Part shown: positions 779 through 57,573 of the stretch, piece by piece
Numbering within the stretch: position 1 is the stretch's first letter
Layout: the number at the start of each line of letters is the position of its first letter
DNA from: a virus
Taxonomy: Duplodnaviria > Caudoviricetes
Direction: 5' to 3' (one strand)
Length of the DNA stretch: 60,506 nt
IMG/VR virus record: IMGVR_UViG_3300036800_000125
Span: 1 to 60,506 of that record
Program-made: the position numbers and the translations under genes
Notes under the pieces: model-generated
The model's input: the letters and a program-made list of their open reading frames with translations, nothing else
Database searches by the model: none
What the model was told of the DNA's origin: nothing

Positions 779-1004
779 CCTCCTTTCTGGCCATCGGGTC
801 GAATATAGCCCAGAGCCCGCATCCTTTGCACTGTCGCTGGATATGGGTCTTAAGCATATCGTGTATCCACTGTAGCTTAACTGCCTGGTTGCCTATTGCT
901 CCTATCGGCTCGGGTGTATGTGGTTCGCATTCTTCCGGGAATAGAGGGGTGAAGTGACCCTCGACGATCTTGATGCGCTGAGGCACTTCTTGGCCAGGCA
1001 TCAT
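765..1004 (-). CDS. hypothetical protein with C-terminal CxxC (QRQCKGCGLWAIF)
   Basis: ATG overlaps the primase stop codon (ATGA). Confidence 0.65.
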   Translation of the reverse strand: MMPGQEVPQRIKIVEGHFTPLFPEECEPHTPEPIGAIGNQAVKLQWIHDMLKTHIQRQCKGCGLWAIFDPMARKEGDDG

Positions 1005-3013
1005 TCGTCGTCCCCTACCCTTGCCTTCTCTGTGGTCCAGTTCCATCCTCGGACGCCTGGCTTCCCCTTCTCGCGAACCGGGATCGAGCGAACGCCGAGG
1101 TGTTCTTTCGCCTTGTTGATATCGTCCTTGCGTGTTGACGCTCCGGCCTGCCGAAGGGCATCGATCACGTCGGCAGAGGGCCATGTGTTCCTTTCGCCGA
1201 ATAGTTCGAGCATGATCTCCTCCACCTCCTTCAGCCGTGTCGGCCCTCTGCCTCCACGCATTGCACCTTCGCCATCTGCCAGAACATCCGCTGTCACTCC
1301 GACCGCTAGATCGCCCCAATCTACCCTGCCGTGATAGGTTCCCTGGCGGTCACCTGTGAGGATCTCACTGTCAACGATATTATACCCCCAAACCCCGCCG
1401 ATACCCTCCTTCGACGTTAGGTTCGTATCGATGATGGCGATACCGAACTTGTCTTGGTGCCCTTCGGGCAGTTCTCCGGTAATCAGATGGACACGCGCCC
1501 GATTTTGGAATGCAGTACTGCCGCTTCCCCGATTCGCTGCTCCGGAGCCGCGTGCTTTGTTCAGGTGACGTATTGCTAGGCCAGCACAGCCCGTGTCATT
1601 AAGCACCACAGCAAGCGGACGGAGCGCCTGACGGACACTTGCATCATTGTGAGTCTGTACATCCTCGCCCAGCATGTCGGTGATCGGGTCGAAGATGGCC
1701 ATGCGTGCCTCGCACTCGATAATGGCACTCTTGATATGCTTGGCACCTTCGGGCAGACCCCAGTTGCGACGAACCGCGGCCGGACTTACTCGTGCTACTC
1801 GCTTGAGGTCTGCCCCGGCCGCCCGGAGGCGCGGCCGGATCGTCGTGTCCCATCCACCCTCATCTGTGAACAGCAACACGGTGATCGGATCGGTCTCGGC
1901 CGTGTCCTGATCCGGCATAGGGAATCCGCGCGTCGCCCTTGCAATTAGGTCATAGGTTATGAATGACTTCCCCTTGCCCTTGGCGCCGTCCATTAGCGAC
2001 ATCTCGCCGAACGCGAGCCGACCATACCAGAGCCATGCGAGGCTCCGCTCAGCGATGTCATCAACCCACTGAATCAGACCACGCCGTGTCGGACGGATGC
2101 TCGCTAGCTCGCGTTCTTCTTCTTCGGTTCCGTCTGGCAGCACCGTACCGCTACGGTGAAGGAGGCCGCGTAGATGCCAGTCGGGTCGAGAACGCCGTGC
2201 TGCCGGATACCAGGGGTCTTGGGTATTGTAAACCGGCATCTCACGAACGAGGAGGACGAGGTTGGCTACGATGGACACCTCGTCATGACCCATCCGCTCT
2301 AGCTCGTGGACGTACTTAAGGAGCGCTTGTCGCTGCTCTCCTCCCTCGGCAACGATGCAGTCCTTGCGGAGCGCATCCACCGGAGTCCGCCCTGAGCTAT
2401 AGACTCGATCTGCTGGGGATCCAAGTGATTCCAGTATGTAATCACGGAGGAGGGCGCATCCGATATCGGTGGCAGATTGTAGAGGTTGAACCGGATCATC
2501 TTTGGATCGGTAGTGGAGAACCTCTCCGGTGACCTTAGATGGTCGTACTGTCGGAGGAATGAATACAAATCCTCGTCCGGTACCATCGTCCTTGCCTCCC
2601 TGGAGGTCGAGTCCCTTGAGGAAGCCAGTATGCTTCCCTATGTTCAGCCCAGCGATATAGAGGTGGCGTCCACCGCTCGGCGTCGCCACCTCCCAGTAGA
2701 CTTCGGGTCCGTCTTCTCCGAGTTCCTTGCTGAGGCGCTTGAAGCTAAGAAGACCGCCATTTCGTGGATCGATATCTAGAACGTCAAATGTAGTGCCGGT
2801 CACGGCACACAGGGCCTCGCCTGGCCTCCAGCGGTCAACCTCGTCGTGGGATGGCTCCCTTTTCTGCCAGTTTCTCCAGCGACGATCGTTCTCGTCCGGG
2901 TTCCCATCAACCTTGAGGCGGCCACGGAATACAGCTATTCCGTAGTCGACAAGAAGGTGGGCGCGATTTAGGGCTTTCTCCGTCGCGGGGGTCGTACCTT
3001 CCGGTAGGATCAT
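1001..3013 (-). CDS. bifunctional DNA primase/polymerase (Prim-Pol) fused to RecA/AAA_25-type helicase
   Basis: VLDIDPRNGG and TPSGGRHLY Prim-Pol motifs; Walker A GAKGKGKS, Walker B IFDPI, RHLNK and GSTAF motifs. Confidence 0.9.
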   Translation of the reverse strand: MILPEGTTPATEKALNRAHLLVDYGIAVFRGRLKVDGNPDENDRRWRNWQKREPSHDEVDRWRPGEALCAVTGTTFDVLDIDPRNGGLLSFKRLSKELGEDGPEVYWEVATPSGGRHLYIAGLNIGKHTGFLKGLDLQGGKDDGTGRGFVFIPPTVRPSKVTGEVLHYRSKDDPVQPLQSATDIGCALLRDYILESLGSPADRVYSSGRTPVDALRKDCIVAEGGEQRQALLKYVHELERMGHDEVSIVANLVLLVREMPVYNTQDPWYPAARRSRPDWHLRGLLHRSGTVLPDGTEEEERELASIRPTRRGLIQWVDDIAERSLAWLWYGRLAFGEMSLMDGAKGKGKSFITYDLIARATRGFPMPDQDTAETDPITVLLFTDEGGWDTTIRPRLRAAGADLKRVARVSPAAVRRNWGLPEGAKHIKSAIIECEARMAIFDPITDMLGEDVQTHNDASVRQALRPLAVVLNDTGCAGLAIRHLNKARGSGAANRGSGSTAFQNRARVHLITGELPEGHQDKFGIAIIDTNLTSKEGIGGVWGYNIVDSEILTGDRQGTYHGRVDWGDLAVGVTADVLADGEGAMRGGRGPTRLKEVEEIMLELFGERNTWPSADVIDALRQAGASTRKDDINKAKEHLGVRSIPVREKGKPGVRGWNWTTEKARVGDDE

Positions 3014-7133: not shown

Positions 7134-8342
7134 CTACACCACCTCGAATTCTAGCTCGGCGTCGGGCTCGTCGGGCTCGTCGGCGGCGGCGGCCTCCGTG
7201 GTCCGGAGCCGCGCGCTTAGGGCGTCCGCGCGGGCGAGGATAGGCGCGGCTACCCGGCCCCGTCCGGCCCCGTAGTCGCCCGCGAGGTTCTGCCCGGATA
7301 TGGTAGCGCTGGGCCCGATTGCTCGAACGGCCGTCGCGAGCAGGTAGTTCGAGGAGGAGGATATGTAGGGACGATCCTCCATCTCTTGTAGCTCGTCGAC
7401 CAAGTCGACGTTGAAGATGACCTCGGCCTCGTAGCGGCGCAGGATGGTAGCGACGTCGAGTAGCATCTGCTGGTTCGGCGTCGGCTTGATCTCCGTGGAT
7501 TCGTTCATGGCCAGGCGCAGGAACGCATCCATGATGAGCGCGGGCCAGCGACCCCCGGCCGCCCAGGCGGTCGAGAACATCAGGCCCCACGTCTGCTTCT
7601 TCCGGCTGCTGAGCGCGGGATGCAGCTTACGGACCTCGTTCTTGTTGTGCTCCTTGATCTCCTGCATGTGGCCGGTGAGCCAGTCACGGAGCGTGTCCTG
7701 GTAGGCGTGGCCCATCGCCTCGACATCTTCGTCGGCTGTGTCATCCTTGTGAATGTGCTTCGGCTTCGGGCTCATCCGGATCGGGATACAGCGGCTAAGG
7801 ATGTCACCGGGGACGCTGGTGTGGAGGCCGGACATCCACTGGACGCCGTAGCTGCTCGCTTCGTACAGGGTTCTGGATACGCTGTAGCTCAGCGTCGCGT
7901 TGCGCCGGTAGCTTTCACACTGGAACTTGTACAGGGGATTGGTCTTCCCCATGTCCCCGTTCTCGCCGTAGATCTTGCCGATCTCATCCAGGCCGAGGGT
8001 GTGGTGGCCCTTCCGGTTGTAGAACGCCTTGATCCCCGGCCAGGTACTGTCGGACATCCAGCCGCCATCGCTCAGCATCATAGCGGTGTCGAGGACGGTC
8101 GTCTTGCCCGCCTGCTCCTCGTGTGCCGTAACCAGGAAGTAGGGCAGCGTCGAGCTGGCCTCCGGGATGTAGCTCGCAGCGCAGCCCAGGACGATTGCCG
8201 TCATCTGCCATGGCTGCACATAGAGCAGCGTCTCGGCAAACTCGGCAACCTCATCCAGAATCTCGTCGCCCGGCCGCCCGGCGTTGGCCTTGGCCCGGCG
8301 TCGCGCTTTGAAGACTTCGTTGCGCTCGCGTACGGTAACCAT
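7134..8342 (-). CDS. DUF3631-like P-loop NTPase (replication-associated)
   Basis: AGKTT Walker A, LGLDE Walker B, DILSRCIPIRM and AAGGRWP segments typical of DUF3631-containing proteins. Confidence 0.7.
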   Translation of the reverse strand: MVTVRERNEVFKARRRAKANAGRPGDEILDEVAEFAETLLYVQPWQMTAIVLGCAASYIPEASSTLPYFLVTAHEEQAGKTTVLDTAMMLSDGGWMSDSTWPGIKAFYNRKGHHTLGLDEIGKIYGENGDMGKTNPLYKFQCESYRRNATLSYSVSRTLYEASSYGVQWMSGLHTSVPGDILSRCIPIRMSPKPKHIHKDDTADEDVEAMGHAYQDTLRDWLTGHMQEIKEHNKNEVRKLHPALSSRKKQTWGLMFSTAWAAGGRWPALIMDAFLRLAMNESTEIKPTPNQQMLLDVATILRRYEAEVIFNVDLVDELQEMEDRPYISSSSNYLLATAVRAIGPSATISGQNLAGDYGAGRGRVAAPILARADALSARLRTTEAAAADEPDEPDAELEFEVV

Positions 8343-8366
8343 ACGGGTACTCCTCTCGCTGATACC

Positions 8367-8396
8367 ATTATACCCCCGACCGGGCGCGGCCGGTAG
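8367..8396 (-). promoter_or_regulatory. phage promoter
   Basis: CTACCG-N18-TATAAT upstream of the 8342 start. Confidence 0.6.
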
Positions 8397-8414
8397 GGGG
8401 TACGTGGGTGGAGT

Positions 8415-10764: not shown

Positions 10765-10796
10765 CGGGGCCTCCTCGGGTAAGGGGTATGGGTAGA

Positions 10797-10827
10797 AGTA
10801 TACCGTAGATGACGTCGGTAAGGCTAC
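10797..10827 (-). promoter_or_regulatory. phage promoter
   Basis: GTAGCC-N19-TATACT; -35 lies in the arm of a long hairpin (about 10823-10869). Confidence 0.7.
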
Positions 10828-10877
10828 CCCTACGGCTACGCGGTTTAGCCGCGTAGCCGGACGGGTAGCGTGGCTGG

Positions 10878-11165
10878 TTAGTCTGCCAGGGGGTGCCGGG
10901 CACGGGTGGTTACGGTGGTGCCAGGTGCGTACGGGTAGGTAATGCCGGCGGCGACTAGGGAGGTGTTCACGTGCCGCCGACCGGCCGCGTCCTGGCCGTC
11001 CTGGGCACGGTAGGTAATCAGGAGCCAGCGCAGCTCTAGGGTCGGTGCAGTAGCGAGTTGTGCGGCGGTCCGTGCGCCGTATGTATGGGCATGGTACCTG
11101 GTTACCTCGGACAGCAGCTGCTCACGGGGGAGGGATTTCACTTCGGTTAGTAGCTGGTCGTACAT
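10878..11165 (-). CDS. hypothetical protein
   Basis: 95 aa, AGGAGGT RBS. Confidence 0.75.
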   Translation of the reverse strand: MYDQLLTEVKSLPREQLLSEVTRYHAHTYGARTAAQLATAPTLELRWLLITYRAQDGQDAAGRRHVNTSLVAAGITYPYAPGTTVTTRARHPLAD

Positions 11166-11193
11166 TTTACCTCCTACGGTTGGCGTTACCTCA

Positions 11194-11223
11194 ATTATAG
11201 CGTAACTGGACCAGTAGCGCTAC
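11194..11223 (-). promoter_or_regulatory. phage promoter
   Basis: GTAGCG-N18-TATAAT. Confidence 0.75.
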
Positions 11224-11264
11224 CCCCTCGGCCCCTAGCTTTTTACAGCTAGTGCGGGGGTAAG

Positions 11265-11504
11265 CTACTCGTCGTCGTCGCCGGAGCGGAACGTGGCGGT
11301 GCTAATGTCCTCGTACGGGGAGATCCGGCCGAACCGAGCTCCGTACGTCTGGCCGTTGTCCGTAACCACTTCGGCGTCCTCGCCGAAGGACGTAATCGCT
11401 CGGGTAATCAGGGATCGGAGATCGGCCAGGGTCATCGGGTTGTCGATCTGGTATGCGCCGTAACCGAGGTTGTCCTCGATAGGCAGCACTACACGGTCTG
11501 CCAC
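11265..11504 (-). CDS. hypothetical protein
   Basis: 79 aa, GGAGGT RBS. Confidence 0.75.
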   Translation of the reverse strand: MADRVVLPIEDNLGYGAYQIDNPMTLADLRSLITRAITSFGEDAEVVTDNGQTYGARFGRISPYEDISTATFRSGDDDE

Positions 11505-12677: not shown

Positions 12678-12769
12678 TGTTCGTTCCTTTCTTGCTGTCT
12701 CCTGGCCCCTCGGGGCCCTTTACCGGGGGTACCGGGGCCCTTGCTCCCCGCGTCGCTCCCACTAACCCC

Positions 12770-12799
12770 ATTATACGCTACGCGCTGTAACCGCGCTAC
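12770..12799 (-). promoter_or_regulatory. phage promoter
   Basis: GTAGCG-N18-TATAAT. Confidence 0.75.
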
Positions 12800-12822
12800 C
12801 CCTTACCATAGATTACCGCTGG

Positions 12823-13179: not shown

Positions 13180-13186
13180 GATGAAT

Positions 13187-13217
13187 AGTATATACCCTTC
13201 GTATAAGTGATGGCTAC
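13187..13217 (-). promoter_or_regulatory. phage promoter
   Basis: GTAGCC-N19-TATACT. Confidence 0.6.
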
Positions 13218-13551
13218 GGTAAGTATACTATATTCTCCGCCGTACCTACCCCGGGGGGTCCCTAAACTATAAGGGTATTTGCCATGGTCAATGCCATGTT
13301 TTTTGAATTTAGGGGGAGGTCCCTAAACCCCTTGTGCAATTGTGGCTAGAGGGTGTTCGTGTGTGAAGTTTTCAATGAGGGTACAGGAGAGTATGAACGG
13401 CTGGAAACCATGGCTGCAGTGCTGTTAAGCTTGATTTCCTATTATTCTAGTATTATTTATTATATACATATGGAGAAAGTAAGGAGGTTAGGGACCTAGG
13501 TCGGGCACACGGGCCTAACGTTTCCGCTTCTAAACTATTTGCATGAAATGG

Positions 13552-13612
13552 CCATTTTTCAACCAACTTTCGGCCATTTTTCTACCATTTTCTAGCCATT
13601 TTCTCCATTTTC
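13552..13612. repeat. six CCATTTT(T)C-like units at about 11 bp period
   Basis: copies at 13552, 13563 (degenerate), 13574, 13585, 13596, 13605. Confidence 0.85.
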
Positions 13613-14055
13613 TATGACTCGCCCGGGATTCCTGGTGTCGACTTCTAACGTCGGCTTTACCTATTAGGGACGAAACCGGGCGTGCAAACTACGCTCAGTA
13701 ACCGGAATCTCCAGCGAATTACATCGCCACAGGTACCTAAACGGTCGATCAGATCTACCCCCCCTGTCTCCGAGCTTCGAAGCGTTACTGGCGACTACGA
13801 TTGCTTTGTCACTGCAACTACGTAGCGTAACCATTTCCTGCAGGAAATTGGCAACAGGAAAATTAAAACGTTTTAATTCCGAAATTCTAAACTACTCCAA
13901 ATTCCCACCGTTTACTGCCTTTTCACCATAAGTTACTGGTGAGTACGGTTTCCATATGGAACGGTACTCAGTACCCTTCCATATGGCGTTCGAATGGCCG
14001 TAGCGTGGAGTAAATCGGCCCTAGTGATACCACTATTCGGCCGTATCCAGCCACT

Positions 14056-14090
14056 AAAAACGACCCCACCCCGAAGGGCAGGGCCGTCTT
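14056..14090 (-). terminator. Rho-independent terminator of the early cassette
   Basis: 13 bp stem with G-U pairs, UUCG loop, U-tail (GACGGCCCTGCCC-TTCG-GGGTGGGGTCGTT-TTT). Confidence 0.85.
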
Positions 14091-14136
14091 TCTGGCGTTC
14101 TCCTACGCTTTTCCGCCGCCGCTCGTGTAGTTTTGC

Positions 14137-14530: not shown

Positions 14531-14881
14531 TCAGGCCATGTGGATGGTGATCGGGCTCATGTCCTCGGCGCAGTCCTCGGTGCGGATGGCGGCCGCCAGG
14601 GTCTCGAGCGCCAGAGCGACGTCTTCGCGGTCCAGGCCATCGCCTAGTGCGGTCCGCGCCGCCAGTTCCGAGTAGCGCTGGAGCATCAGGAAGGCCTCGC
14701 TGGCCGTTACGGAGGTCGGGCCCTCCATCCGGCCGCCGTGCGTTTCGTACTGGAACGCGCTGTCCTGGTGGGCGTTGTAGGCGTCGGCCGCATTGGTGTT
14801 GTCGTACGGGCCAAGACCGAGCTCCTGGTTCATGCGCTCGCCATCGGCCTCGTAGTCGGATTGGTCAAGGTCTTTGGGCAT
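14531..14881 (-). CDS. acidic hypothetical protein
   Basis: 116 aa, AAGGAG RBS. Confidence 0.75.
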   Translation of the reverse strand: MPKDLDQSDYEADGERMNQELGLGPYDNTNAADAYNAHQDSAFQYETHGGRMEGPTSVTASEAFLMLQRYSELAARTALGDGLDREDVALALETLAAAIRTEDCAEDMSPITIHMA

Positions 14882-14883
14882 CG

Positions 14884-15216
14884 CTACTCCTTGAAGGGTA
14901 CGGACTGGTATGTGACGCCGACGTCTGGGAAGTGCTGGGCGTTGGCTATGCCGCCGACGTCGTCGATGAGCGAGCAGACGGCCATCATGTCATCGCCGAG
15001 GTCGACATCCACGCCGTTGAGCAGGATGCGGCCGGTGTCGTTGAACTCGATGGTGATTGCGCTTCTTCCGTGGTCGCCGTCATCCTCGCAATCGATGGAG
15101 GAGACGTGTTCGCACAGGTAGATCGACTTCACAGTGTCGGCGTTGTGGTAGACCAGCGTTACATCCACTGGTTCTTCCAGCACCCAGGCGGGCAGATGGT
15201 TGATCATTTCGGGCAT
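14884..15216 (-). CDS. acidic hypothetical protein
   Basis: 110 aa, GGAGGAG RBS. Confidence 0.75.
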   Translation of the reverse strand: MPEMINHLPAWVLEEPVDVTLVYHNADTVKSIYLCEHVSSIDCEDDGDHGRSAITIEFNDTGRILLNGVDVDLGDDMMAVCSLIDDVGGIANAQHFPDVGVTYQSVPFKE

Positions 15217-15412: not shown

Positions 15413-15442
15413 AGTATAGCGTATACCGGCTGGTAACGCTAG
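15413..15442 (-). promoter_or_regulatory. phage promoter
   Basis: CTAGCG-N18-TATACT, next to a long hairpin (about 15441-15480). Confidence 0.75.
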
Positions 15443-15489
15443 CCCTAGCGTAGAAAATTTGCAACTTTCTACGCTGGGCTACGCGCGGC

Positions 15490-15648
15490 CTAGCTGAAGA
15501 CGAATCCGTAGGCGTCGAAGGTGAGCGTTGCCTGGAACATGGTAAGTTCTTCGTAGGTCCTGCCCCACATGTATATGGACAGGTAATCGATGTTCATCGG
15601 TGCCAGCCCGTCGCGGGCACACCCTGCCTTGTACTCGTCGAGGGTCAT
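15490..15648 (-). CDS. 52 aa hypothetical protein
   Basis: MTLDEYKAGC..., ATGA overlap. Confidence 0.65.
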   Translation of the reverse strand: MTLDEYKAGCARDGLAPMNIDYLSIYMWGRTYEELTMFQATLTFDAYGFVFS

Positions 15649-16177: not shown

Positions 16178-16193
16178 GGTACTCCTCCTCTTT

Positions 16194-16249
16194 GGGCTAG
16201 GCAGCCCGGCCGGAGCTCCGTGGCAGCGGAGCGCCAGCCTAGTGGCCTA
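16194..16249 (-). repeat. two-hairpin intergenic element, copy B
   Basis: TAG-NN-CACTA-[hairpin]-GGGCTGCCTAGCCC. Confidence 0.8.
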
Positions 16250-16507: not shown

Positions 16508-16513
16508 AGCCTT

Positions 16514-16544
16514 ATTCTACCTCCATGCTGACTAGTAAGGCTAG
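16514..16544 (-). promoter_or_regulatory. phage promoter, probably leaderless
   Basis: CTAGCC-N19-TAGAAT-AAGGCT-ATG; near-duplicate of 17341-17386. Confidence 0.7.
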
Positions 16545-16593
16545 CCCCTAGCCGGAAAATTTTCTGCAATTCTCCGGCTACGGGCGAACCCGG

Positions 16594-16662
16594 CTAGCGA
16601 CGAGGTGTTGCGAAGAATGCGGTGAACAGGATGATGACGCCGATCAGGGCAAGGCCGAACAT
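16594..16662 (-). CDS. 22 aa single-TM peptide (MFGLALIGVIILFTAFFATPRR)
   Basis: translated by hand; starts just after the upstream TAG. Confidence 0.45.
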   Translation of the reverse strand: MFGLALIGVIILFTAFFATPRR

Positions 16663-16867: not shown

Positions 16868-16897
16868 GGTAAGCCTCCGTGAGGCTGGTAGGGAGCT

Positions 16898-16947
16898 GGG
16901 CTAGGTCGCCCGGGCAGTGCCCCGTAGGGCACCACCCTAGCGCGCTA
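16898..16947 (-). repeat. two-hairpin intergenic element, copy C
   Basis: TAG-CG-CGCTA-[hairpin]-GGGCGACCTAGCCC. Confidence 0.85.
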
Positions 16948-17343
16948 GAGCTCCTGGCGGGGCACATCCCGCCCGCAGTGGTAGCAGTGCTCACTTGCGT
17001 TATCCGGGTTAGCGAACACCCCGGGATGGATACAGTCGCGCGTCACGGATTCGCCGTAGTTCAGGTTCAGGGTTGCGGCCTCGTCAGCCGCCCCCAGCAC
17101 GACGGGCAGGTCATCGCCGAAGTCACGGATCAGATCAGAGCAGCCGCCCCACTCAGCCCAGACCACGGCGAGCGGGCGGAGGTCGTCAAAGACGAGCAGG
17201 ACGGCCGGGAACAGGCCGACCGTACCGGCGGGCTGGTAGGTAAAGCCGCCGGGGGAGATGGTACCGCGCGTTATCGTCACGGGCGAGCCGTCACGGAACC
17301 AAAGCGGCAGTTCAGCCGGGGGAACCGGCAGGTTTTCATTCAT
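16945..17343 (-). CDS. hypothetical protein, C-terminal Cys/His cluster
   Basis: 132 aa; CIHP...HCYHCG. Confidence 0.75.
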   Translation of the reverse strand: MNENLPVPPAELPLWFRDGSPVTITRGTISPGGFTYQPAGTVGLFPAVLLVFDDLRPLAVVWAEWGGCSDLIRDFGDDLPVVLGAADEAATLNLNYGESVTRDCIHPGVFANPDNASEHCYHCGRDVPRQEL

Positions 17344-17349
17344 AGCCTT

Positions 17350-17379
17350 ATCGTACCTCCTATTGGCTAGTAAGGCTAC
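17350..17379 (-). promoter_or_regulatory. phage promoter, probably leaderless
   Basis: GTAGCC-N18-TACGAT-AAGGCT-ATG. Confidence 0.7.
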
Positions 17380-17424
17380 CCCCTAGACTGGTAACGTTGC
17401 GTTACCAGCCCGAGGGAAGCACGG

Positions 17425-17733
17425 CTAGCGCCAGTCAGAGCGGTCAGGAACGGGCAGGTCAGCGGTAGGCCAGCCGAGCGCGGGGGAGGACAGGTGGTGA
17501 AGCTGGTTCGAGATGAGCTTGGCGACTTCGGCCTGAAGCTCAGCGGGCACCAGTTCGGTGACCAGGGTACCGGCGGCCAGGATGATCGCCAGGTCGACGT
17601 CACGCCGCCAGTCGGTCGCCGTACGCGGCTTGACCGTTACGGTCCGCGCGGGGTGAGCCTTGGCGAAGGCCTGCGGGTCCCGCTGCGCCAGTTCGAAGGC
17701 GGACCGGAGCGCGAGGAGCGATGAAGTTGTCAT
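17425..17733 (-). CDS. hypothetical protein
   Basis: 102 aa, GAAAGG RBS. Confidence 0.7.
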   Translation of the reverse strand: MTTSSLLALRSAFELAQRDPQAFAKAHPARTVTVKPRTATDWRRDVDLAIILAAGTLVTELVPAELQAEVAKLISNQLHHLSSPALGWPTADLPVPDRSDWR

Positions 17734-17754
17734 GGTAGTGCCTTTCTCGGTTTT

Positions 17755-17807
17755 GGGCTAGGTCGCCCGGGCGGTACCCCCGGAGGGGGTATCACCCTAG
17801 CGCGCTA
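17755..17807 (-). repeat. two-hairpin intergenic element, copy D
   Basis: near-identical to copy C outside the hairpin tip. Confidence 0.85.
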
Positions 17808-18095
17808 GGCAAAGTCACCGAGGCACCCGGAGCAGGTACCGTTAGCCGACCGCGTTACGAAGTGACGGTCACAGATATTAGACTGGCCCTTACGCGGGCC
17901 CCGTAGGACTACGGGGCGGTAGCCGCCGCTTAGCGCGCGGTCAGCTAGCGCGTCAAGTACGTAGGCCGGGGGCATCGCGCTACCGGGATCGCACTCACAT
18001 TTTTCGTAGTTCATTAGCTGGGTAGGCGTATAGGGCCTACGGTTAGCGGCTAGTAGCTTCAGTTTTTGGGGACTAGGCCCCTTACGCCCGCTCAC
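17805..18095 (-). CDS. first gene of the early cassette; C-terminal Zn-finger-like (CDRHF...GTCSGC)
   Basis: 96 aa; AGGGG RBS; unusual CTA/GTA codon use. Confidence 0.65.
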   Translation of the reverse strand: MSGRKGPSPQKLKLLAANRRPYTPTQLMNYEKCECDPGSAMPPAYVLDALADRALSGGYRPVVLRGPRKGQSNICDRHFVTRSANGTCSGCLGDFA

Positions 18096-18196
18096 TTTTT
18101 ACCCCTACCCCTTACGTACGCGGGCCCTAGCGGGCCCTACCCGCGCGGTACGCGGGCCCGGGGGCCCCGCCCGCTACCTTTTTAGCTATTACCTAA

Positions 18197-18226
18197 AGGT
18201 TACCCCCTACCTAGGCAAAAAGCTAC
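18197..18226 (-). promoter_or_regulatory. phage promoter heading the early cassette
   Basis: GTAGCT-N18-TAACCT. Confidence 0.6.
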
Positions 18227-18391
18227 CTTTTGCGGTAACGAAATGGTAACGTTAGCTAGTACCTTAGGACCTACCCCCTACCGGGCCCTACCCCGAAATT
18301 GCCCCTACCCGGCCTGGAGCGGGCCCCTAAGTGGACTTCTACCTACCCCCGTCCTACCCGCCCGGTCGGCGTCCCGGGCCCGTAAAATGCC

Positions 18392-18518
18392 ATCGTTCGG
18401 TCCTTCGTACGACCTAACGACTGGAATTCGTACGGTCGTACGTATGACCTGGACCGGTCGTACGGTCGTTCGTATCATTCGAGTTAGAACCGCCGGTCGT
18501 TCGGTCGTTCGTACGTTC
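18392..18518. repeat. cluster of GGTCGT(A/T)CG / TCGTACG short repeats
   Basis: multiple imperfect tandem copies visible. Confidence 0.75.
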
Positions 18519-18579
18519 AGTCCCGCAAGTTGGCGAAAAATCTGAACAGTCATGGTTATACCCTGGAATAGTTCGAAAA

Positions 18580-18623
18580 TCCCAAAAAGTGCAAAACGAT
18601 CGCAATTTCCCAAAAAGTGCAAA
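18580..18623. repeat. 16 bp direct repeat TCCCAAAAAGTGCAAA x2
   Basis: 18580-18595 and 18608-18623, within a run of A-tracts. Confidence 0.85.
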
Positions 18624-18704
18624 CACAATTTCCAAATTGTACTTCATGCAACCGGTTGACCAGCGGATTAGGCGAAACCCCCGTTAGGGGGTAACCTACT
18701 ATCT

Positions 18705-18902
18705 ATGGGTCGGCACATAGGGTATGTAATCCCGCAAGAAGAGAAGGATAAGATCGCTGCGACGCAGCGTCGCACCTGGGCGCTCAAACGCCGTCCATGG
18801 ACCGATGCTTCCCGCATGATCCTCGCCGCCATTAGCGACGGTGACCAGGCCCTGGCCCACGAGATCCTCGATGCTTACATGAACACAGAACAGGAGGGGT
18901 AA
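18705..18902 (+). CDS. hypothetical protein (probably leaderless)
   Basis: 65 aa; TAACCT 7 nt upstream of the ATG. Confidence 0.7.
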   Translation: MGRHIGYVIPQEEKDKIAATQRRTWALKRRPWTDASRMILAAISDGDQALAHEILDAYMNTEQEG

Positions 18903-19495
18903 TGGAAGCAGCAGAAGCAGCACAAAGCCTTCTTAGAGATGTTCTCGAGTCGCTCTGTCGGCGAGACGGCCTTCCGCTGGACAGCATCGTCGAGCCTGGT
19001 AAGCCAGCCAGGAACTACGAGCTTGCCGAACGCCTTGGTATCGGTCATGTTTTCGGCATCGGCCCCTGTTCTCCCGAAGAGCAGGTTGATGATCTTCGAA
19101 GGAAGGAGGAATGGTTCCAGGACAACGTAGGCGATCCAGATCTCTATGGAGGCTTCTCCCCGCTCGAGCAGGCCAGCCTCGGTCTCGGTAAACTGACATT
19201 CGAGTACCGTCCTGGCGATCACAAGGACGCCAACGGCAACTGGCGTGGCCCGGAAACGGTCGTACGAGGACAGGGCAGCAGCATGCTCGATCCGGACGAT
19301 ATCATCATCGATCGCCTCCATCGTTACTACGGCGGCATCCGCCCGATCTCGACGAAACCCGGCCAGCAGTATCCGGCCACGCCGAACTACGATTGGACAT
19401 GGAACCTCACCCGGGACCAGGTCGAAGACGCCCTCGATATTACGCTCAACGGGAACGCCAGCAAAGAGGAGAGCGACGACAGCGATGGAAATTAA
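18902..19495 (+). CDS. hypothetical protein
   Basis: 197 aa, TAATG coupling. Confidence 0.75.
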   Translation: MEAAEAAQSLLRDVLESLCRRDGLPLDSIVEPGKPARNYELAERLGIGHVFGIGPCSPEEQVDDLRRKEEWFQDNVGDPDLYGGFSPLEQASLGLGKLTFEYRPGDHKDANGNWRGPETVVRGQGSSMLDPDDIIIDRLHRYYGGIRPISTKPGQQYPATPNYDWTWNLTRDQVEDALDITLNGNASKEESDDSDGN

Positions 19496-21301: not shown

Positions 21302-21585
21302 AACGCGACCAAATTGCCACAGGCATATACTGGATCGGCCTCGGCCTCCTTATCGATGTGCTGCTAATCGCAGCAACCAGTTCGCACCCGAGCGCGATGA
21401 ATCATAACGCAAGGGACTGGATCGTTATTGCTTGTGGCCTGATCTCGTTCACGACCGGCGGACTCTTGCATTTCTTCGACTGGGGCAAGAGGGCGGGGAG
21501 AAGCAGCCGAGATGGAACCCGCTCGTTACGAGATCGTTACCAGCAATATTCCCGAAACTCCCCGCGCGCCGCGCGGGTAGGCTAG
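21298..21585 (+). CDS. 2-TM membrane protein
   Basis: two hydrophobic helices; GTGA overlap. Confidence 0.65.
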   Translation: MKRDQIATGIYWIGLGLLIDVLLIAATSSHPSAMNHNARDWIVIACGLISFTTGGLLHFFDWGKRAGRSSRDGTRSLRDRYQQYSRNSPRAARVG

Positions 21586-21639
21586 CGTATCGCTAGCGAC
21601 TGGAAAACCAGCCGCGACCATTAACAGGAGGCATCCTTA

Positions 21640-34956: not shown

Positions 34957-35554
34957 TGCGGGGTCGAGCAACAACCCCCTTGAAAGGTGGGATGCGCTAC
35001 GTCGTGGTACCAGCTCCTCGACATCCGAAAGTGGGCTCGACAAGAGTGGCACTTCTGGAACGACCGACCGCCCATCGCCTGCCCCAACTGTGGAGAACCC
35101 CTCCTCACCGGCCCAAGTTCCCAGCCCAGCACCACTCTCTACTGCCGATTCGACGGATGGCAGTGGCCAAGAGACTACATCCAGCCCAGCGAGCCCGTCG
35201 GGCTCTTCGGAGGACTCAGCAGCGCTGAAGGAAGCTACCCCGGACCAGGTCCTGGAGGCTGATCTTGACGTTCCTGAGCCAGAGCCAGCCGTTGAGCCGT
35301 ACGCCGGCATCAGCGGCTTCGAGGCGATGGAACTAGCCCGAGACGAATACGCAAAAGGCAACCTTGACGAGTCCGAGCGACTTCTTGCGATAGCCGAAAA
35401 GCGGGGCGAGAACGCTTCGGCCGTCGCTAGGGCGCGCGGCTATATCGCCGGGGCCCGCGCGCGAGCCGTAGGGGCCGCTCCGTCCGAAAACGGGGCCTCC
35501 GGGGCCGGTCCGGGCGAGGCGGATCCGTCGACGGGCGGGTTCCTCGTCCCGTAA
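34940..35554 (+). CDS. Ser/Pro-rich protein with C-terminal helical (TPR-like) segment
   Basis: 204 aa from ATG 34940; ELARDEYAKGNLDESERLLAIA. Confidence 0.55.
   Translation: MARSTSAGSSNNPLERWDALRRGTSSSTSESGLDKSGTSGTTDRPSPAPTVENPSSPAQVPSPAPLSTADSTDGSGQETTSSPASPSGSSEDSAALKEATPDQVLEADLDVPEPEPAVEPYAGISGFEAMELARDEYAKGNLDESERLLAIAEKRGENASAVARARGYIAGARARAVGAAPSENGASGAGPGEADPSTGGFLVP
34987..35262 (+). CDS. Zn-ribbon protein nested in an alternative frame
   Basis: SWYQLLDI...ACPNCGEPL...YCRFDGWQWPRD. Confidence 0.6.
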   Translation: MGCATSWYQLLDIRKWARQEWHFWNDRPPIACPNCGEPLLTGPSSQPSTTLYCRFDGWQWPRDYIQPSEPVGLFGGLSSAEGSYPGPGPGG

Positions 35555-35628
35555 GCTACGCTTAACCCACAACCGCAGAGACGGCCAGCCTACCCGCGAG
35601 GGTTCTCAGCAAGAAAGCAAGGCAACGG

Positions 35629-54169: not shown

Positions 54170-54325
54170 AGACGTGAAGACAGGCTCCGGCGGCTATTCG
54201 CAAGAGTAGCCGGAGCCTGTCTTCGGGGAGATCAGCAATGATGCTGCGCGCGGAGAGTTGCACGGGAGGTTACATGGGGCTCCTTCCTCCGGGGACAGGG
54301 ACATCGTCCTAGTAACCAGTATACG
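54170..54325 (-). ncRNA. candidate small RNA / minigene transcript
   Basis: bounded by a consensus promoter and a terminator; contains SD-AUG-UAA. Confidence 0.4.
54176..54224 (-). terminator. long hairpin terminator
   Basis: 15 bp perfect stem GAAGACAGGCTCCGG/CCGGAGCCTGTCTTC; same CTTCACGTCTA tail as the 52438 hairpin. Confidence 0.8.
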
Positions 54326-54331
54326 CTAGCT

Positions 54332-54361
54332 AGTATACGCCGCGTCCGGGCGGGTGGCTAG
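54332..54361 (-). promoter_or_regulatory. phage promoter
   Basis: CTAGCC-N18-TATACT; a second TATACT at 54318-54323. Confidence 0.7.
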
Positions 54362-54367
54362 GGGTTA

Positions 54368-54787
54368 TCAAAATTGCCTTTCGTGCCCGACATGCTCGCC
54401 GTCTGACTGCCAGACTACACGAGCGATGCCTACTGACTTGGCAACCCGATAGCACATGAAGCAGGGCTCGCTGTTGACGTACAGCGTGGCGCCTCCGCAT
54501 AGGGCCGAACCGGCCATGAGCATGGCCGCCATCTCCGCATGAACGGTGATGCAATCGCTGTAGTCTGGTTGTCCCTGGCCGGGTGGCAGGGTGCCGCGTG
54601 GGCATCCGCCTTCGATACAGGTCGGCTTGTCCTTCGGCCCTCGGTTATAACCATGACCAACGATACGGACGTTACCGTGGTACTCGATAGCGATGATCGC
54701 ACCGACGTCGCGATGGGTGCAGCGGGCGAGCGACGCGAGCGACCGACAGACCATAATCATGGCGCGGTCATGGGATACTGATCTCAT
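54368..54787 (-). CDS. dCMP deaminase
   Basis: VGAII, GYN, VHAE, PCFMC zinc deaminase motifs. Confidence 0.9.
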   Translation of the reverse strand: MRSVSHDRAMIMVCRSLASLARCTHRDVGAIIAIEYHGNVRIVGHGYNRGPKDKPTCIEGGCPRGTLPPGQGQPDYSDCITVHAEMAAMLMAGSALCGGATLYVNSEPCFMCYRVAKSVGIARVVWQSDGEHVGHERQF

Positions 54788-55002: not shown

Positions 55003-55286
55003 CCGAATATGCTCCTCAGGATGATCCCGGTGATGGGTCCGAATGTCATCTCTAGCACAATGATGACGAGGACAATCAAGATGAATTCAAAGCGGCTAGT
55101 CTTTGGCGGCACATCGATTCGAAACCAGTACCACCAAGGTTTCGGATCGCCGCTATCCCCGAGATTATTAAGTTCTTGTTCCAGCCGAGCGATCTCTTCC
55201 TGGCGTTCTTCCCCGGTAACCTCACCATCCTCGACTGCCTTCATTCTTTTGTTGATCTCGTCCATTTTCTGCTCAGTCGGGGTCAA
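54990..55286 (-). CDS. membrane protein
   Basis: N-terminal coiled coil, C-terminal TM. Confidence 0.65.
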   Translation of the reverse strand: MTPTEQKMDEINKRMKAVEDGEVTGEERQEEIARLEQELNNLGDSGDPKPWWYWFRIDVPPKTSRFEFILIVLVIIVLEMTFGPITGIILRSIFGWPF

Positions 55287-57573
55287 TGACGTAGATCCTC
55301 TCTGCCATTAGCGGGGTACCGAACCCGGCGATTCTATTGCCTACACACACCACGACATCATGGTTTACCGCGATCGTTTCTATCGTACGCTTTAGCGCTG
55401 GAAATCTAAAGCGGTTCACCCGAAGATATACTTCTTCGTCAGTCGTGTCAAAGCACCGTATAGAGCAGTAGGCGAGCAGGTCCGGACGCTTGAGGGTCTT
55501 GAGAATCGTCTCGACCTCCTCGCCGGTTCGCGAGCGGCGGTTCTCTACGGCATCCTGGTAGTTGATCTCTCGGACCATCCCCATGTAGACAACGCGCGGA
55601 CCCTTCCCGTAGGCAGCCTTGGCGTTCGCCCCGTAATTCTGCTCTACCTGGATCTCAGCCGTTTGCGTCCCGTCATGCGTTGGCCTTGGCACTTCGAAAT
55701 GACGGGCGGAACGTCCGCGTTCCTTGGTTATCCAGGCGAGAGCTTTAGCCAGAGACTTCTTGGTTCGGTTCAGCTCGAAAGGATCTTCGGCTGTTGCGAA
55801 CTCATGCATCTTCAGGACGGTCTTCGGGCCGATGCCCGGTACGATCTGCATATCTGACCAGTTCTGCCAGCCGCCTTCCGGCCGGTGCTCCTCGATCTTC
55901 TCGCTGGTCTTTGCTGCGATGCCGGTGATCTGTTCCCATCCGGCTACAAGCATCGGTTTGCCGGTCTCGCCCTCGTAGGCTCCGATCCAGCTACGGCTGC
56001 TCATTGATAGTCGGGGTGGACTGATCGCTATCCCGTGGTTCTGGGCGTCCTTCATCAGCTTGAAGCGGCTCTCTGCGTCTCCCTCCTTTGCGAGGGAGGC
56101 TGCATAGAACTCCAGCGGGTAGTGGGCCTTCAACCATGCACACCATAGCCCCAGGATTGAGTAGGAAACCGAATGGGCATAGACAAAAGCATATGTGCCC
56201 GAAGTAACAAGTCTCTTCCAAATTCTCTGGGCTGTCTTCTCGTCGATTCCATGTAGCCGGAATGCTCCCTCCACAAAGTTGCCCATTGAAACATTGAAAG
56301 CCGCTTCGCCGATCTTCTTGGCGATGATTCGTCGGATCTCGTTCGCGTTCGTCCAATCGAATCCGCCTACCTCTCGAACGATTTGGAGGATCTGCTCCTG
56401 GTATATGATTTGGCCGCGCGTGTGAGCTGTGATGCGATCTGTGATCGGATGAAAGCGCTCTGGCTTCCTTCGTCCGTGCTTGACATCGCAGTACTCCGCT
56501 GTCGTACCAGAGAACAGTGGCCCCGGACGAGATAGCGCATTGATGTCAATGACTTCTCCAAAGTTGTCTGGAGATACATCACGGTTGACAAGGCGGGTAG
56601 CTCGACCCTCAAACTGAAAGATGCCCGTGACATCACCCCGTTTGAATACCGCGAGTGCGTCGGGATCATCGTCAGGTATCGCATACAAATCCTCCAGGGT
56701 AAGGTTAGCTAGCTCAAGGCAGTTGGCTATGATTCCCATCGTACTCAGACCAAGCAGGTCCATCTTGATCATGCCGGCGTACTCAACGTCATACTTATCG
56801 ATGCTCAGGACGGAACGGCCGTCCCGGTCGTACACGCTACATACATCGGTCAACGGGGTATTAGAGACGATCAGCCCAGCCGCGTGAATACTCATTCCGC
56901 GGACGTTACCCTCAAGCCGGGTCGCCTGCATGATCTTCGGGAACTGATCAGCGATCGCCTGAGCGGCCGGGAACATTTCGAACGTGTCTTGCAGGCTAGC
57001 GCTGAAGCGGGAGTCACCGCCCGAGCGCTCGATAACCCGTTTGCTTACTTCGGTCTTGGCCCAATGCGGGATCCCGTAGACTCGGCAGGTGTCGTCGAGC
57101 GAGTTCTTTCCACGGTATCGTACAAAGTTTGCAACAGTTCCGACACATTCAGGTCCATACCGAGCGGCCATGTAATCGCGAACTTCGTACCTCCGTTCAT
57201 CCGATATGTCAAGGTCAATGTCCGGCGGGTCGGTTCGGGTGACATCGATAAACCTCTCGAACAGGAGATGTGGGTAGCGGATAGGATCCACCTCGGTGAT
57301 GCGAAGGAGCCAGCTCACCACGGAGGCGGCGACAGAGCCGCGCCCCGGACCCATCGGGATGCCGGAGTCCTTTGCACGACGGACCATGTCGCTCGTGGCG
57401 AGGAAGAAGTCGATATAATCCTTGTCGGTGATCAGGCCCATCTCATACTTGACGCGCCCGGCATACCAGTCCTGATCCTTCTGCGGTCGCTGACTGATCT
57501 TCCGATACTTCCAGCCAAATCTAAGCCACTGCCATATGAGTTCTTCAGAGCTGACCGTAACGTTCGTCTGCAT
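55273..57573 (-). CDS. dnaE: DNA polymerase III alpha subunit, catalytic/C-terminal part
   Basis: GPGRGS, LLFERF, PDIDLD, HAAGL, KMDLLGL, GIFQFE, RPGPL, YQEQ, YAF..AHS, WLKAHYP. Confidence 0.93.
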   Translation of the reverse strand: MQTNVTVSSEELIWQWLRFGWKYRKISQRPQKDQDWYAGRVKYEMGLITDKDYIDFFLATSDMVRRAKDSGIPMGPGRGSVAASVVSWLLRITEVDPIRYPHLLFERFIDVTRTDPPDIDLDISDERRYEVRDYMAARYGPECVGTVANFVRYRGKNSLDDTCRVYGIPHWAKTEVSKRVIERSGGDSRFSASLQDTFEMFPAAQAIADQFPKIMQATRLEGNVRGMSIHAAGLIVSNTPLTDVCSVYDRDGRSVLSIDKYDVEYAGMIKMDLLGLSTMGIIANCLELANLTLEDLYAIPDDDPDALAVFKRGDVTGIFQFEGRATRLVNRDVSPDNFGEVIDINALSRPGPLFSGTTAEYCDVKHGRRKPERFHPITDRITAHTRGQIIYQEQILQIVREVGGFDWTNANEIRRIIAKKIGEAAFNVSMGNFVEGAFRLHGIDEKTAQRIWKRLVTSGTYAFVYAHSVSYSILGLWCAWLKAHYPLEFYAASLAKEGDAESRFKLMKDAQNHGIAISPPRLSMSSRSWIGAYEGETGKPMLVAGWEQITGIAAKTSEKIEEHRPEGGWQNWSDMQIVPGIGPKTVLKMHEFATAEDPFELNRTKKSLAKALAWITKERGRSARHFEVPRPTHDGTQTAEIQVEQNYGANAKAAYGKGPRVVYMGMVREINYQDAVENRRSRTGEEVETILKTLKRPDLLAYCSIRCFDTTDEEVYLRVNRFRFPALKRTIETIAVNHDVVVCVGNRIAGFGTPLMAERIYVIDPD

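What the first reader, a model, noticed from the sequence alone, without database searches (positions are those of the whole stretch)
18096..18330. Promoter DNA is purged of TG/TC/CA/GA dinucleotides: possible footprint of dinucleotide-specific DNA hypermodification
Seen: by manual reading, 18096-18215 (120 nt) contains no TG, TC, CA or GA, so A follows only T or A and T precedes only A or T. Ordinary DNA of this GC content would have one at roughly every fourth position. Partial depletion recurs around promoters: 8370-8403, 10817-10859, 11218-11267, 12770-12807, 15413-15492, 16530-16597, 17365-17427, 21562-21597 and 54310-54367. It also appears inside coding ends (about 7205-7275 and 35400-35570) and in the first early gene, which uses CTA/GTA codons; the early cassette mostly stops with TAG. 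It is absent from the repeat blocks at 13.3-14.0 kb and 18.4-18.65 kb, so it is not a generic non-coding bias. Established, from memory: 5-hmU-derived thymidine hypermodifications (phiW-14, ViI, M6 type) are reported to prefer TS dinucleotides, and Mu Mom modifies A in an S-A context. Inference: virion DNA carries a bulky modification at TS/SA, and DNA that RNA polymerase must bind is kept free of it. The dCMP deaminase, MazG-like enzyme and private DnaE fit nucleotide-pool rewiring.
Basis: partly seen in the sequence, partly recalled or inferred. Interest (0 to 1): 0.9.

Follow-up and report, generated by a model that had tools for sequence, protein, structure and literature searches.

The report
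TS-free DNA islands in phage control regions
The regulatory DNA of this soil phage and some of its relatives almost never lets a T be followed by G or C, a strict and conserved sequence rule that has no established explanation and might mark DNA kept free of a base modification.

Summary
Window 18094-18216 (123 nt) holds no TG, TC, CA or GA. In 200 Markov simulations the longest such run averaged 28 nt and never exceeded 41. A GC-independent test of S/W junction polarity gives 50 against 6, p = 3e-11.

The run lies in a 459-nt depleted segment inside the 971-nt non-coding region between two divergent gene arms. The record is an incomplete (64%) actinophage-like virus from soil. Weaker depletion recurs in short promoter/hairpin cassettes of the small-ORF arm.

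Three relatives (G001, G002, G005) show the same rule at the same genomic position, although the sequences there cannot be aligned. Other relatives and unrelated phages do not.

RNA structure, helical phasing, restriction-site avoidance, codon or mutational bias and GC content do not explain it.

It lacks gene support in the window and in more complete relatives. Two phages with TS-linked modification (M6, PhiW-14) show no such depletion.

The mechanism is open. Modification avoidance is my best guess, at about 0.3.

The parts
18094..18216 (.). Longest run without TG, TC, CA or GA (123 nt). Every A/T run in it starts with T and ends with A.
17873..18331 (.). Main depleted segment (459 nt). Observed/expected is 0.26-0.39 for the four dinucleotides and 2.77 for TA. 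A+T content (about 40%) is close to the record's average. G exceeds C on the minus (early-sense) strand.
17734..18704 (.). 971-nt region without a convincing ORF, between the minus-strand small-ORF arm (first gene 17425-17733) and the plus-strand arm (first gene 18705-18902).
18389..18513 (.). Four copies of a 21-nt direct repeat (CCGGTCGTACGGTCGTTCGTA type, spacing 30-39) next to the depleted segment. Not depleted. Iteron- or operator-like.
18222..18250 (-). Short element GTTACC-ATTTC-GTTACC followed by a hairpin and T-run. It is the only stretch of the segment that is nearly identical in relative G005, and it carries some of the few remaining CA/TC steps.
10796..10883 (-). Intergenic cassette holding an inverted repeat (GGCTACGCGG...CCGCGTAGCC) and a promoter-like site (GGGGTAGC, about 20 nt, TATACT). 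8 'bad' steps in 88 nt.
11166..11264 (-). Intergenic cassette with promoter-like site GGGGTAGC-19 nt-TATAAT. Fraction of the four dinucleotides is 0.10.
12678..12822 (-). Intergenic cassette with promoter-like site GGGGTAGC-19 nt-TATAAT. Fraction is 0.14.
15413..15492 (-). Intergenic cassette with promoter-like site GGGCTAGC-19 nt-TATACT. 6 bad against 22 good junctions.
16508..16597 (-). Promoter-like site GGGCTAGC-20 nt-TAGAAT. It is followed after 6 nt by the ATG at 16507, which implies a leaderless start. Depletion here is weak (8/16 in 16530-16597).
17344..17424 (-). Promoter-like site GGGGTAGC-19 nt-TACGAT. It is followed after 6 nt by the ATG at 17343. Fraction is 0.12.
8343..8414 (-). 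Intergenic cassette with TATAAT. Fraction is 0.14.
54305..54368 (.). Depleted palindromic stretch (GCGTATACTAGCTAGCGTATAC) next to the dCMP deaminase gene (54368-54787, minus strand). 3 bad against 17 good in 54310-54367.

Best explanation
Shown: the non-coding control DNA of the presumed early arm obeys a strand-symmetric rule. This DNA is the ~0.46-kb stretch between the divergent arms plus the short promoter/hairpin cassettes between small ORFs. In it, T is followed only by A or T, which on the other strand means A is preceded only by T or A. A/T therefore occurs as TA, TTA, TAA or T(n)A islands in G+C runs. The rule is kept by purifying selection while the sequence itself turns over.

Inferred: single transitions from TA or CG would create TG/CA all the time, so each 5'-TS-3' step must carry a cost in this DNA but not in coding DNA.

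The reading I think most likely: TS is the context read by an enzyme that acts on duplex DNA. The best candidate is a context-specific modification of T, or of the paired A. The control DNA has then evolved to offer that enzyme no sites. This would let host RNA polymerase and regulators read it on the injected genome. In effect it would be an inverse CpG island.
For: - The rule is real and extreme.
- It is roughly strand-symmetric in three genomes and in unidirectional cassettes. Residual sense-strand counts are TG 20, TC 24, CA 34 and GA 49 (GA includes Shine-Dalgarno sites), against CT 75, AG 105, GT 86 and AC 95.
- It is conserved at the syntenic control region of G001 (590 nt with 28 'bad' steps, ending sharply at the ribosome-binding site of the first gene), of G005 (237 nt plus 9 further short segments between its genes) and of G002.
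- blastn aligns no part of window 17.7-18.7 kb to those genomes.
- Coding DNA is not depleted, at synonymous sites included. Neighbouring repeats are not depleted either.
- DNA upstream of the -10 elements is more depleted (47 bad against 124 good) than the 40 nt downstream (45 against 63).
- The dinucleotide set equals the TS specificity inferred for 5hmdU-derived hypermodification (PMC6449724). The 3' neighbour of T is also what phage T-dioxygenases read: NTC or NTG (PMC13229309).
Against: - No known modification gene was found in the window or in G001, G002 or G005: ThyA, Tet_JBP and N6_N4 methylase are absent. ParB is present only with an HTH domain. A GNAT appears only in G005 and is borderline.
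- tblastn found no homologue of the M6 pathway.
- ThyX in G005 and a thymidylate-synthase-like protein in G002 point to ordinary T.
- No ORF of the window is shared by the carriers and absent from the non-carriers G003 and G004.
- M6 and PhiW-14, where TS-linked modification is documented, do not deplete TS in their intergenic DNA. The step 'modification leads to depletion' therefore has no precedent.
- A 0.46-0.59 kb fully depleted stretch is far larger than a polymerase footprint.
- Two of the promoter-like -10 hexamers contain GA (TAGAAT, TACGAT).
Confidence: 0.3

Rival explanations
1. Motif-array reading. The control DNA is a dense array of short oriented TA-centred protein-binding words (GGGTAGG, CCGGTA, GGTAAC, GGGGTAGC as an upstream promoter element) set in G+C-only filler. 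The lack of TS/SA would be a by-product of what those proteins read, and no modification is involved.
For: - Direct k-mer repetition exceeds Markov simulations that obey the rule. G000 has 62 8-mer pairs against 10.5 +/- 5.5; G001 has 62 against 30; G005 has 26 against 9.6.
- About half of each segment is covered by repeated 8-mers (0.44, 0.55 and 0.49).
- The words are oriented: GGGGTAG occurs 12 times in sense and once in antisense; GGTAGCG 9 against 1.
- The composite GGG[GC]TAG[CG]-18 to 20 nt-TAnnnT occurs 7 times, all on the minus strand between 10.8 and 18.3 kb. The Markov expectation is 0.4. G001 has 6, all on its early-sense strand.
Against: - The repeated words differ between G000, G001 and G005, yet the rule is the same.
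- TA occurs in 10 to 12 different NTAN contexts per genome.
- The composite promoter motif is rare in G005 and G002 (1 each), although both show the depletion.
- Binding sites do not explain why the filler between them never drifts to an isolated A or T.
Confidence: 0.25
2. Translation-silent zone. The DNA is transcribed as long leaders or spacers. It is selected to lack start codons (NTG) and Shine-Dalgarno cores (GGAG, GAGG) and to be rich in TAG/TAA stops on both strands.
For: - The four absent dinucleotides are the ones needed for NTG and GGAGG on either strand, and the enriched one makes TAG/TAA.
- In 17873-18331, NTG occurs 4 (+) and 8 (-) times against a mean of 19.8 for windows of the same length. 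TAA+TAG occurs 24 and 34 times against 6.5.
Against: - GA/TC is depleted in all contexts, not only purine-rich ones. AAGGGG-type words that could still pair with the anti-Shine-Dalgarno sequence are common (read).
- The depletion is about equal on both strands, even in cassettes inside one-directional operons.
- It is stronger upstream of the -10 than in the transcribed 40 nt.
- In G001 it lies mostly upstream of the nearest promoter-like site.
Confidence: 0.12
3. DNA-mechanical reading. Isolated TA steps in G+C runs give the control DNA a special flexibility or melting profile, for instance to exclude or recruit nucleoid proteins.
For: TA is 2.8 to 3.6 times over-represented, while A+T content stays near the genome mean.
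Against: - TA spacing shows no helical phasing.
- By recalled nearest-neighbour values (not from a call), the excluded steps CA/TG and GA/TC have nearly the same stacking energies as the allowed AC/GT and AG/CT.
- Selection for TA steps does not explain the removal of isolated A or T.
Confidence: 0.08
4. Local mutational process. A context-dependent W-to-S bias (T to C before S) acts on unconstrained DNA.
For: Such a process would leave TA as the only stable A/T island (reasoning only).
Against: - Synonymous sites of genes show no depletion; the flanking genes give z = -1.1 and +0.05.
- Other non-coding DNA is not depleted: 13.3-14.0 kb, 18.4-18.65 kb and the late intergenic gaps.
- The border in G001 is sharp at the ribosome-binding site.
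Confidence: 0.04

Closest known systems
TS-specific thymidine hypermodification of phages M6, ViI and PhiW-14 (5hmdU route with 5hmdU DNA kinase)
   Same: The dinucleotide class is the same: T followed by G or C, on both strands (PMC6449724).
   Different: None of the pathway genes was found. Relative G005 has ThyX. M6 and PhiW-14 do not clear TS from their intergenic DNA.
Post-replicative phage T-dioxygenases (5mYOX; with or without a ParB-like activator)
   Same: Specificity is set by the base 3' of T (NTC or NTG). The route works on ordinary T, so it is compatible with ThyX and dCMP deaminase (PMC13229309).
   Different: No Tet_JBP domain at E <= 1 in six records. The ParB of G002 and G005 has the HTH domain, which the activator class is reported to lack.
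PeSL cassettes of T4-type phages (early promoter plus stem-loop between small early genes)
   Same: Short intergenic modules with an inverted repeat and a promoter-like site, lying between many small, poorly conserved ORFs. For PMC2839356 I saw only the search listing.
   Different: PeSLs are not described as obeying a dinucleotide rule (recalled, not checked). Here a 0.46-0.59 kb region obeys it too. Mobility was not tested.
CpG islands of vertebrate promoters
   Same: A promoter-linked island whose dinucleotide content differs from the rest of the genome because of DNA modification (recalled textbook knowledge).
   Different: The sign is inverted: here the island lacks the dinucleotide. The organism is a phage, and no modification has been shown.
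Restriction-site avoidance in phage genomes
   Same: Short words are removed because an enzyme targets them.
   Different: Avoidance is genome-wide and concerns 4-6-mers. Here 16 four-base palindromes occur at about the expected counts, and the depletion is local.

Membership tests
5hmdU-derived thymidine hypermodification system (M6 type) | dUMP hydroxymethylase (ThyA homologue) | tested here: not met
   PF00303 six-frame search: 0 matches at E <= 1 in G000 and in G001, G002 and G005. M6 gp58 by tblastn: best E = 0.048.
5hmdU-derived thymidine hypermodification system (M6 type) | 5hmdU DNA kinase and downstream tailoring enzymes | tested here: not met
   tblastn of M6 gp49, gp51-56 and gp59 against G000, G001, G002 and G005: best E = 0.042, nothing significant. 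This is a pairwise search only, so remote homologues could be missed.
5hmdU-derived thymidine hypermodification system (M6 type) | Modified T at TS sites in virion DNA | not testable with these tools
   Only one run holds the window, and it is kept as contigs.
5mYOX T-dioxygenase pathway | Tet/JBP-type Fe(II)/2OG dioxygenase | tested here: not met
   PF12851: 0 matches at E <= 1 in G000 and in G001-G005.
5mYOX T-dioxygenase pathway | ParB-like activator without a DNA-binding domain | tested here: not met
   No ParB_N in G000. The ParB of G002 and G005 carries HTH_ParB.
Mom-type adenine modification | GNAT-fold modification enzyme | tested here: not met
   PF00583: none in G000, G001 or G002; one match of 21.1 bits (cut-off 20.7) in G005 only. 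Mom itself was not used as a query.
PeSL-like promoter/stem-loop cassette | Promoter plus inverted repeat between small early ORFs | tested here: inconclusive
   The composite promoter-like motif occurs 7 times against 0.4 expected, and inverted repeats are visible. The generic terminator scan is at chance level, 11 against 10.6. No transcript data.
Canonical sigma-70/SigA promoter | TTGACA-like -35 element at 16-18 nt from a TAnnnT | tested here: not met
   None of the 8 consensus hits in 8-22 kb lies at any of the 7 promoter-like cassette sites found. The upstream element there is GGGG[GC]TAGC.
Structured non-coding RNA | Rfam match, or folding energy beyond shuffles | tested here: not met
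   0 Rfam matches at gathering score. Only one chance-level miRNA hit. z = +0.64 and +0.93. No tRNA.

The most novel reading that the evidence does not exclude
A clade of uncultivated soil actinophage-like viruses carries a TS-specific DNA modification made by enzymes of no known family. Their early control DNA has evolved into modification-free islands. If so, a base modification and its sequence context could be read from genome sequence alone.
Probability: 0.2. Interest if true: 0.85.

Novelty: new variant of a known kind. Interest (0 to 1): 0.62.

Why it matters
A rule this strict means that about half of all point mutations in this DNA are being removed by selection. Whatever reads 5'-TS-3' steps is therefore important to these phages.

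If it is a modification, the islands would be the first sequence-only footprint of context-specific phage DNA modification. They would be an inverse of CpG islands, and they would point to unknown enzymes.

If it is not, the islands define an unusual regulatory grammar, with a non-canonical upstream promoter element (GGGGTAGC).

Four literature searches returned no paper whose listed title or abstract opening describes such local depletion in a phage.

Tried and rejected
Explanations tested and rejected:
- Chance or GC content, by Markov simulations and the junction polarity test.
- Structured RNA.
- Helical phasing of TA.
- Genome-wide palindrome avoidance.
- Synonymous-site or mutational bias.

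Searches that found little or nothing:
- No DNA match in the phage collection.
- The DUF3631 protein and the 197-aa protein at 18902-19495 found no relatives in viral contigs. The 132-aa protein at 16945-17343 found only two short matches.
- The 20-nt conserved element found only G005.
- Pfam and PHROGs on ORFs of the window gave no function for most of them.
- The protein atlas gave nothing usable for two ORFs.
- Run search: one DNA holder, which may be the source; no RNA holder listed. Read laying was not used, because contigs cannot show modification.

Other points:
- The apparent segments in G006 and G008 are Gly-rich coding repeats, not this feature.
- A weak glucosyltransferase-like hit (phrog_842, E = 4e-5) occurs in G002. 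Its homologue is in non-carrier G003 and not in G000, G001 or G005.
- Of PhiW-14, only the first 50,000 of 157,486 nt were scanned. ViI was not scanned.
- My gene map comes from a home-made codon-score caller, and some calls are wrong. For example, it preferred 54539-54781 (+) over the deaminase ORF.
- Of the 33 Pfam families hit by the G005 ORFs, only 25 were shown.

Full report
**What the window is.** The 60,506-nt window is a whole virus record. It is classed as linear, with a CheckV completeness of 64%. Several genes tie it to phages of actinobacteria:
- a Prim-Pol/AAA_25 protein (1001-3013, minus strand);
- DUF3631, DUF2786 and a terminase;
- a DnaE core (55273-57621, -) with a separate PHP protein (58791-59666, -);
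- a dCMP deaminase (54368-54787, -);
- a LysM/RPF-type transglycosylase.

DnaE is 48% identical to that of Mycobacterium phage PBI1-type phages. The terminase is 61% identical to that of Thermobifida phage P1312. One coded run from a soil metagenome holds the window.

Genes run leftward from 17733 and rightward from 18705, so 17734-18704 is a divergent non-coding region. Synteny with relatives shows that the contig ends cut the replication module between Prim-Pol and PHP.

**The observation.** The stretch 18094-18216 (123 nt) has no TG, TC, CA or GA. These four dinucleotides make up 26.1% of all steps in the record.
- In 200 Markov simulations the longest free run averaged 28 nt and never exceeded 41.
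- Six runs of 30 nt or more were seen, against 0.3 expected.
- To remove any effect of GC content I compared the four 'bad' S/W junctions with their mirror images CT, GT, AC and AG. Across the record the good share is 0.47. In 18072-18263 the count is 50 good against 6 bad, p = 3e-11.
- The 459-nt segment 17873-18331 has TA at 2.8 times expectation and the four dinucleotides at 0.26-0.39.
- Its A/T runs are mostly TA (28), TTA (8) and TAA (3). In the record as a whole, isolated A or T make up 55% of such runs.

The rule is therefore that every A/T run starts with T and ends with A, on both strands.

**Smaller segments.** These lie in the intergenic gaps of the leftward arm: 8343-8414, 10765-10877, 11166-11264, 12678-12822, 16868-16944 and 17344-17424, with fractions of 0.10-0.14. 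Another lies at 54305-54368.

- the two 'coding end' segments are not significant once GC content is controlled;
- gene 17425-17733 has no CTA codon and one GTA codon;
- TAG ends 11 of 22 genes in that arm.

**What the cassettes contain.** On the sense (minus) strand, seven sites between 10.8 and 18.3 kb read GGG[GC]TAG[CG], then 18-20 nt, then TAnnnT (TATAAT, TATACT, TAGAAT or TACGAT). No such site lies on the other strand, and 0.4 are expected by chance.
- Two of these sites put an ATG 6 nt after the -10 hexamer (16507 and 17343), which suggests leaderless starts.
- The generic sigma-70 scan does not find these sites.
- The 66 nt up to the -10 hexamer hold 47 bad against 124 good junctions. 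The next 40 nt hold 45 against 63.

**Relatives.** Capsid and DnaE searches of viral contigs gave 84 loci. Only two of them, L032 and L031, have a free run of 40 nt or more. I then fetched whole contigs.

Carriers of the feature:
- G001 has a 590-nt segment with 28 bad steps. It ends exactly at the ribosome-binding site of the first gene of its early-sense arm.
- G005 (93% complete) has a 237-nt segment at the divergent junction and nine further depleted segments between genes. It also has a 123-nt free run.
- G002 is a circular assembly with a 97-nt end overlap. It has depleted stretches at the syntenic junction, with free runs up to 54 nt, but it does not reach p < 1e-5 in the polarity test.

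Non-carriers: G003 and G004 (same structural module, different early arm), the distant G007 and G010, PBI1 and P1312 have none. The hits in G006 and G008 are Gly-rich coding repeats.

blastn aligns none of window 17.7-18.7 kb to the carriers. One short element, GTTACCATTTCGTTACC, is shared with G005. The rule is conserved; the sequence is not.

**What it is not.**
- Not a structured RNA: no Rfam family, no tRNA, and folding no better than shuffles (z = +0.64 and +0.93).
- Not phased bending: TA spacing shows no periodicity.
- Not restriction avoidance: 16 four-base palindromes occur at about the expected counts.
- Not a mutational or codon bias: genes show no synonymous depletion. The flanking genes give z = -1.1 and +0.05. 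Genes of the leftward arm between 7.1 and 17.7 kb lean slightly negative and structural genes slightly positive.
- Not a generic property of non-coding DNA: the repeats at 18.4-18.65 kb, the 13.3-14.0 kb block and the late intergenic gaps are normal.

**Motif content.** The segments hold more direct k-mer repeats than Markov sequences that obey the rule. In G000 there are 62 8-mer pairs against 10.5. About half of each segment is covered by repeated 8-mers. The repeated words differ between genomes:
- GGGTAGGG and TAGGGCCCGCGTA in G000;
- TCGTTAGCCTAGGTAAC in G001;
- AAAGGCCGGTAAGGG in G005.

TA sits in 10-12 different contexts per genome. Binding-site arrays are therefore present, but the rule is wider than any one of them.

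**The modification idea.** The recalled literature holds.
- Resistant restriction sites in M6, ViI and PhiW-14 DNA share TG or TC, and the authors infer TS specificity of the 5hmdU DNA kinase (PMC6449724).
- Phage T-dioxygenases prefer NTC or NTG (PMC13229309).

The match with the dinucleotide set found here is exact, and strand symmetry fits an enzyme that acts on duplex DNA.

The gene evidence is negative, however.
- ThyA, Tet_JBP and N6_N4 methylase are absent from the window and from G001, G002 and G005.
- ParB_N is absent from the window. The ParB of G002 and G005 has an HTH domain.
- A GNAT occurs only in G005, at the cut-off.
- Ten M6 proteins give no hit.
- G005 has ThyX. The homologous G002 ORF matches PHROG thymidylate-synthase families. 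The G001 homologue was seen by blastp only.
- MazG is one sub-threshold match at 58134-58292.
- No ORF of the window is shared by the carriers and missing from the non-carriers.
- As positive controls, M6 (whole genome) and the first 50 kb of PhiW-14 have no window at or below 7%. M6 intergenic junction counts are about even; its two longest runs are one 36-37-nt repeat.

**Verdict.** The feature is real, strongly non-random and conserved as a rule in one clade. Single transitions would constantly create TG or CA from TA and CG, so selection must remove TS steps from this DNA while tolerating them elsewhere.

A context-reading enzyme on duplex DNA, most plausibly a modification, explains the symmetry and the restriction to regulatory DNA best. 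It has no gene support and no precedent in the known TS-modified phages, so I give it 0.3. Motif arrays (0.25), a translation-silent zone (0.12), DNA mechanics (0.08) and local mutation (0.04) follow, and the rest is unknown.

Supplementary files of the cited papers could not be seen and may hold site-level data on TS specificity.

Noticed in passing
window 13180-14136: A 957-nt stretch without a convincing ORF. It is A+T-rich for this genome (GC 0.47), has many TA steps, and holds sigma-70-like consensus hits on the minus strand. It is not depleted of TS. Its function is unknown; an origin or an RNA gene is possible.
   Followed up: partly
window 18389-18513 and 18580-18623: Four copies of a 21-nt direct repeat (spacing 30-39) with a 22-nt inverted repeat, then two exact 16-nt repeats (TCCCAAAAAGTGCAAA) 28 nt apart. 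They look like iterons or operators beside the depleted segment.
   Followed up: partly
window 17343 and 16507 (minus strand): Two small genes start with an ATG 6 nt after a -10-like hexamer (TACGAT or TAGAAT, then AAGGCT). This implies leaderless mRNAs.
   Followed up: no
window 17734-17813, 16868-16944, 16178-16246, about 14289: A repeated leader element on the minus strand: a hairpin followed by CCGGGC(G/T)(A/G)CCTAGCCCA, directly upstream of ribosome-binding sites.
   Followed up: no
window ends (1 and 60506): The record is about 64% complete. Its ends interrupt the replication module. Relatives G001, G002 and G005 carry an exonuclease (phrog_1218), a Sak4-like AAA_24 ATPase, a Rossmann-type protein (phrog_8720) and ThyX between Prim-Pol and PHP.
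   Followed up: partly
window 55273-57621 and 58791-59666 (minus strand): The DnaE-type polymerase is split. The PHP domain is a separate 291-aa protein, and two small ORFs lie between it and the core. One of them has a sub-threshold MazG match.
   Followed up: partly
window 17805-18095 (minus strand): This 96-aa GTG ORF lies inside the depleted DNA. It has a low coding score (4.0) and no homologue in nine relatives, so it is probably not a gene.
   Followed up: partly
G002 contig 16917-18696 (locus L090): A ParB-like gene with an HTH domain is followed by a 295-aa ORF with a weak match to a glucosyl-HMC glucosyltransferase family (phrog_842, E = 4e-5). A homologue occurs in G003 but not in G000, G001 or G005.
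   Followed up: partly
Pseudomonas phage M6, record positions about 3489 and 29642 (loci L124 and L123): Both large intergenic regions of M6 hold the same 36-37-nt AAGT/TAAG-type repeat (GGGGGTT(T)AAGGTAAGTAAGTTAAGTAAGTTAAG). These are its two longest TS-free runs.
   Followed up: no
G008 contig 14873-15136; G006 contig ends: Long GCCGTAGCC/GCCGTCGCC repeats. On the reverse strand they encode Gly-Gly-Tyr and Gly-Asp repeat proteins in distant relatives.
   Followed up: no
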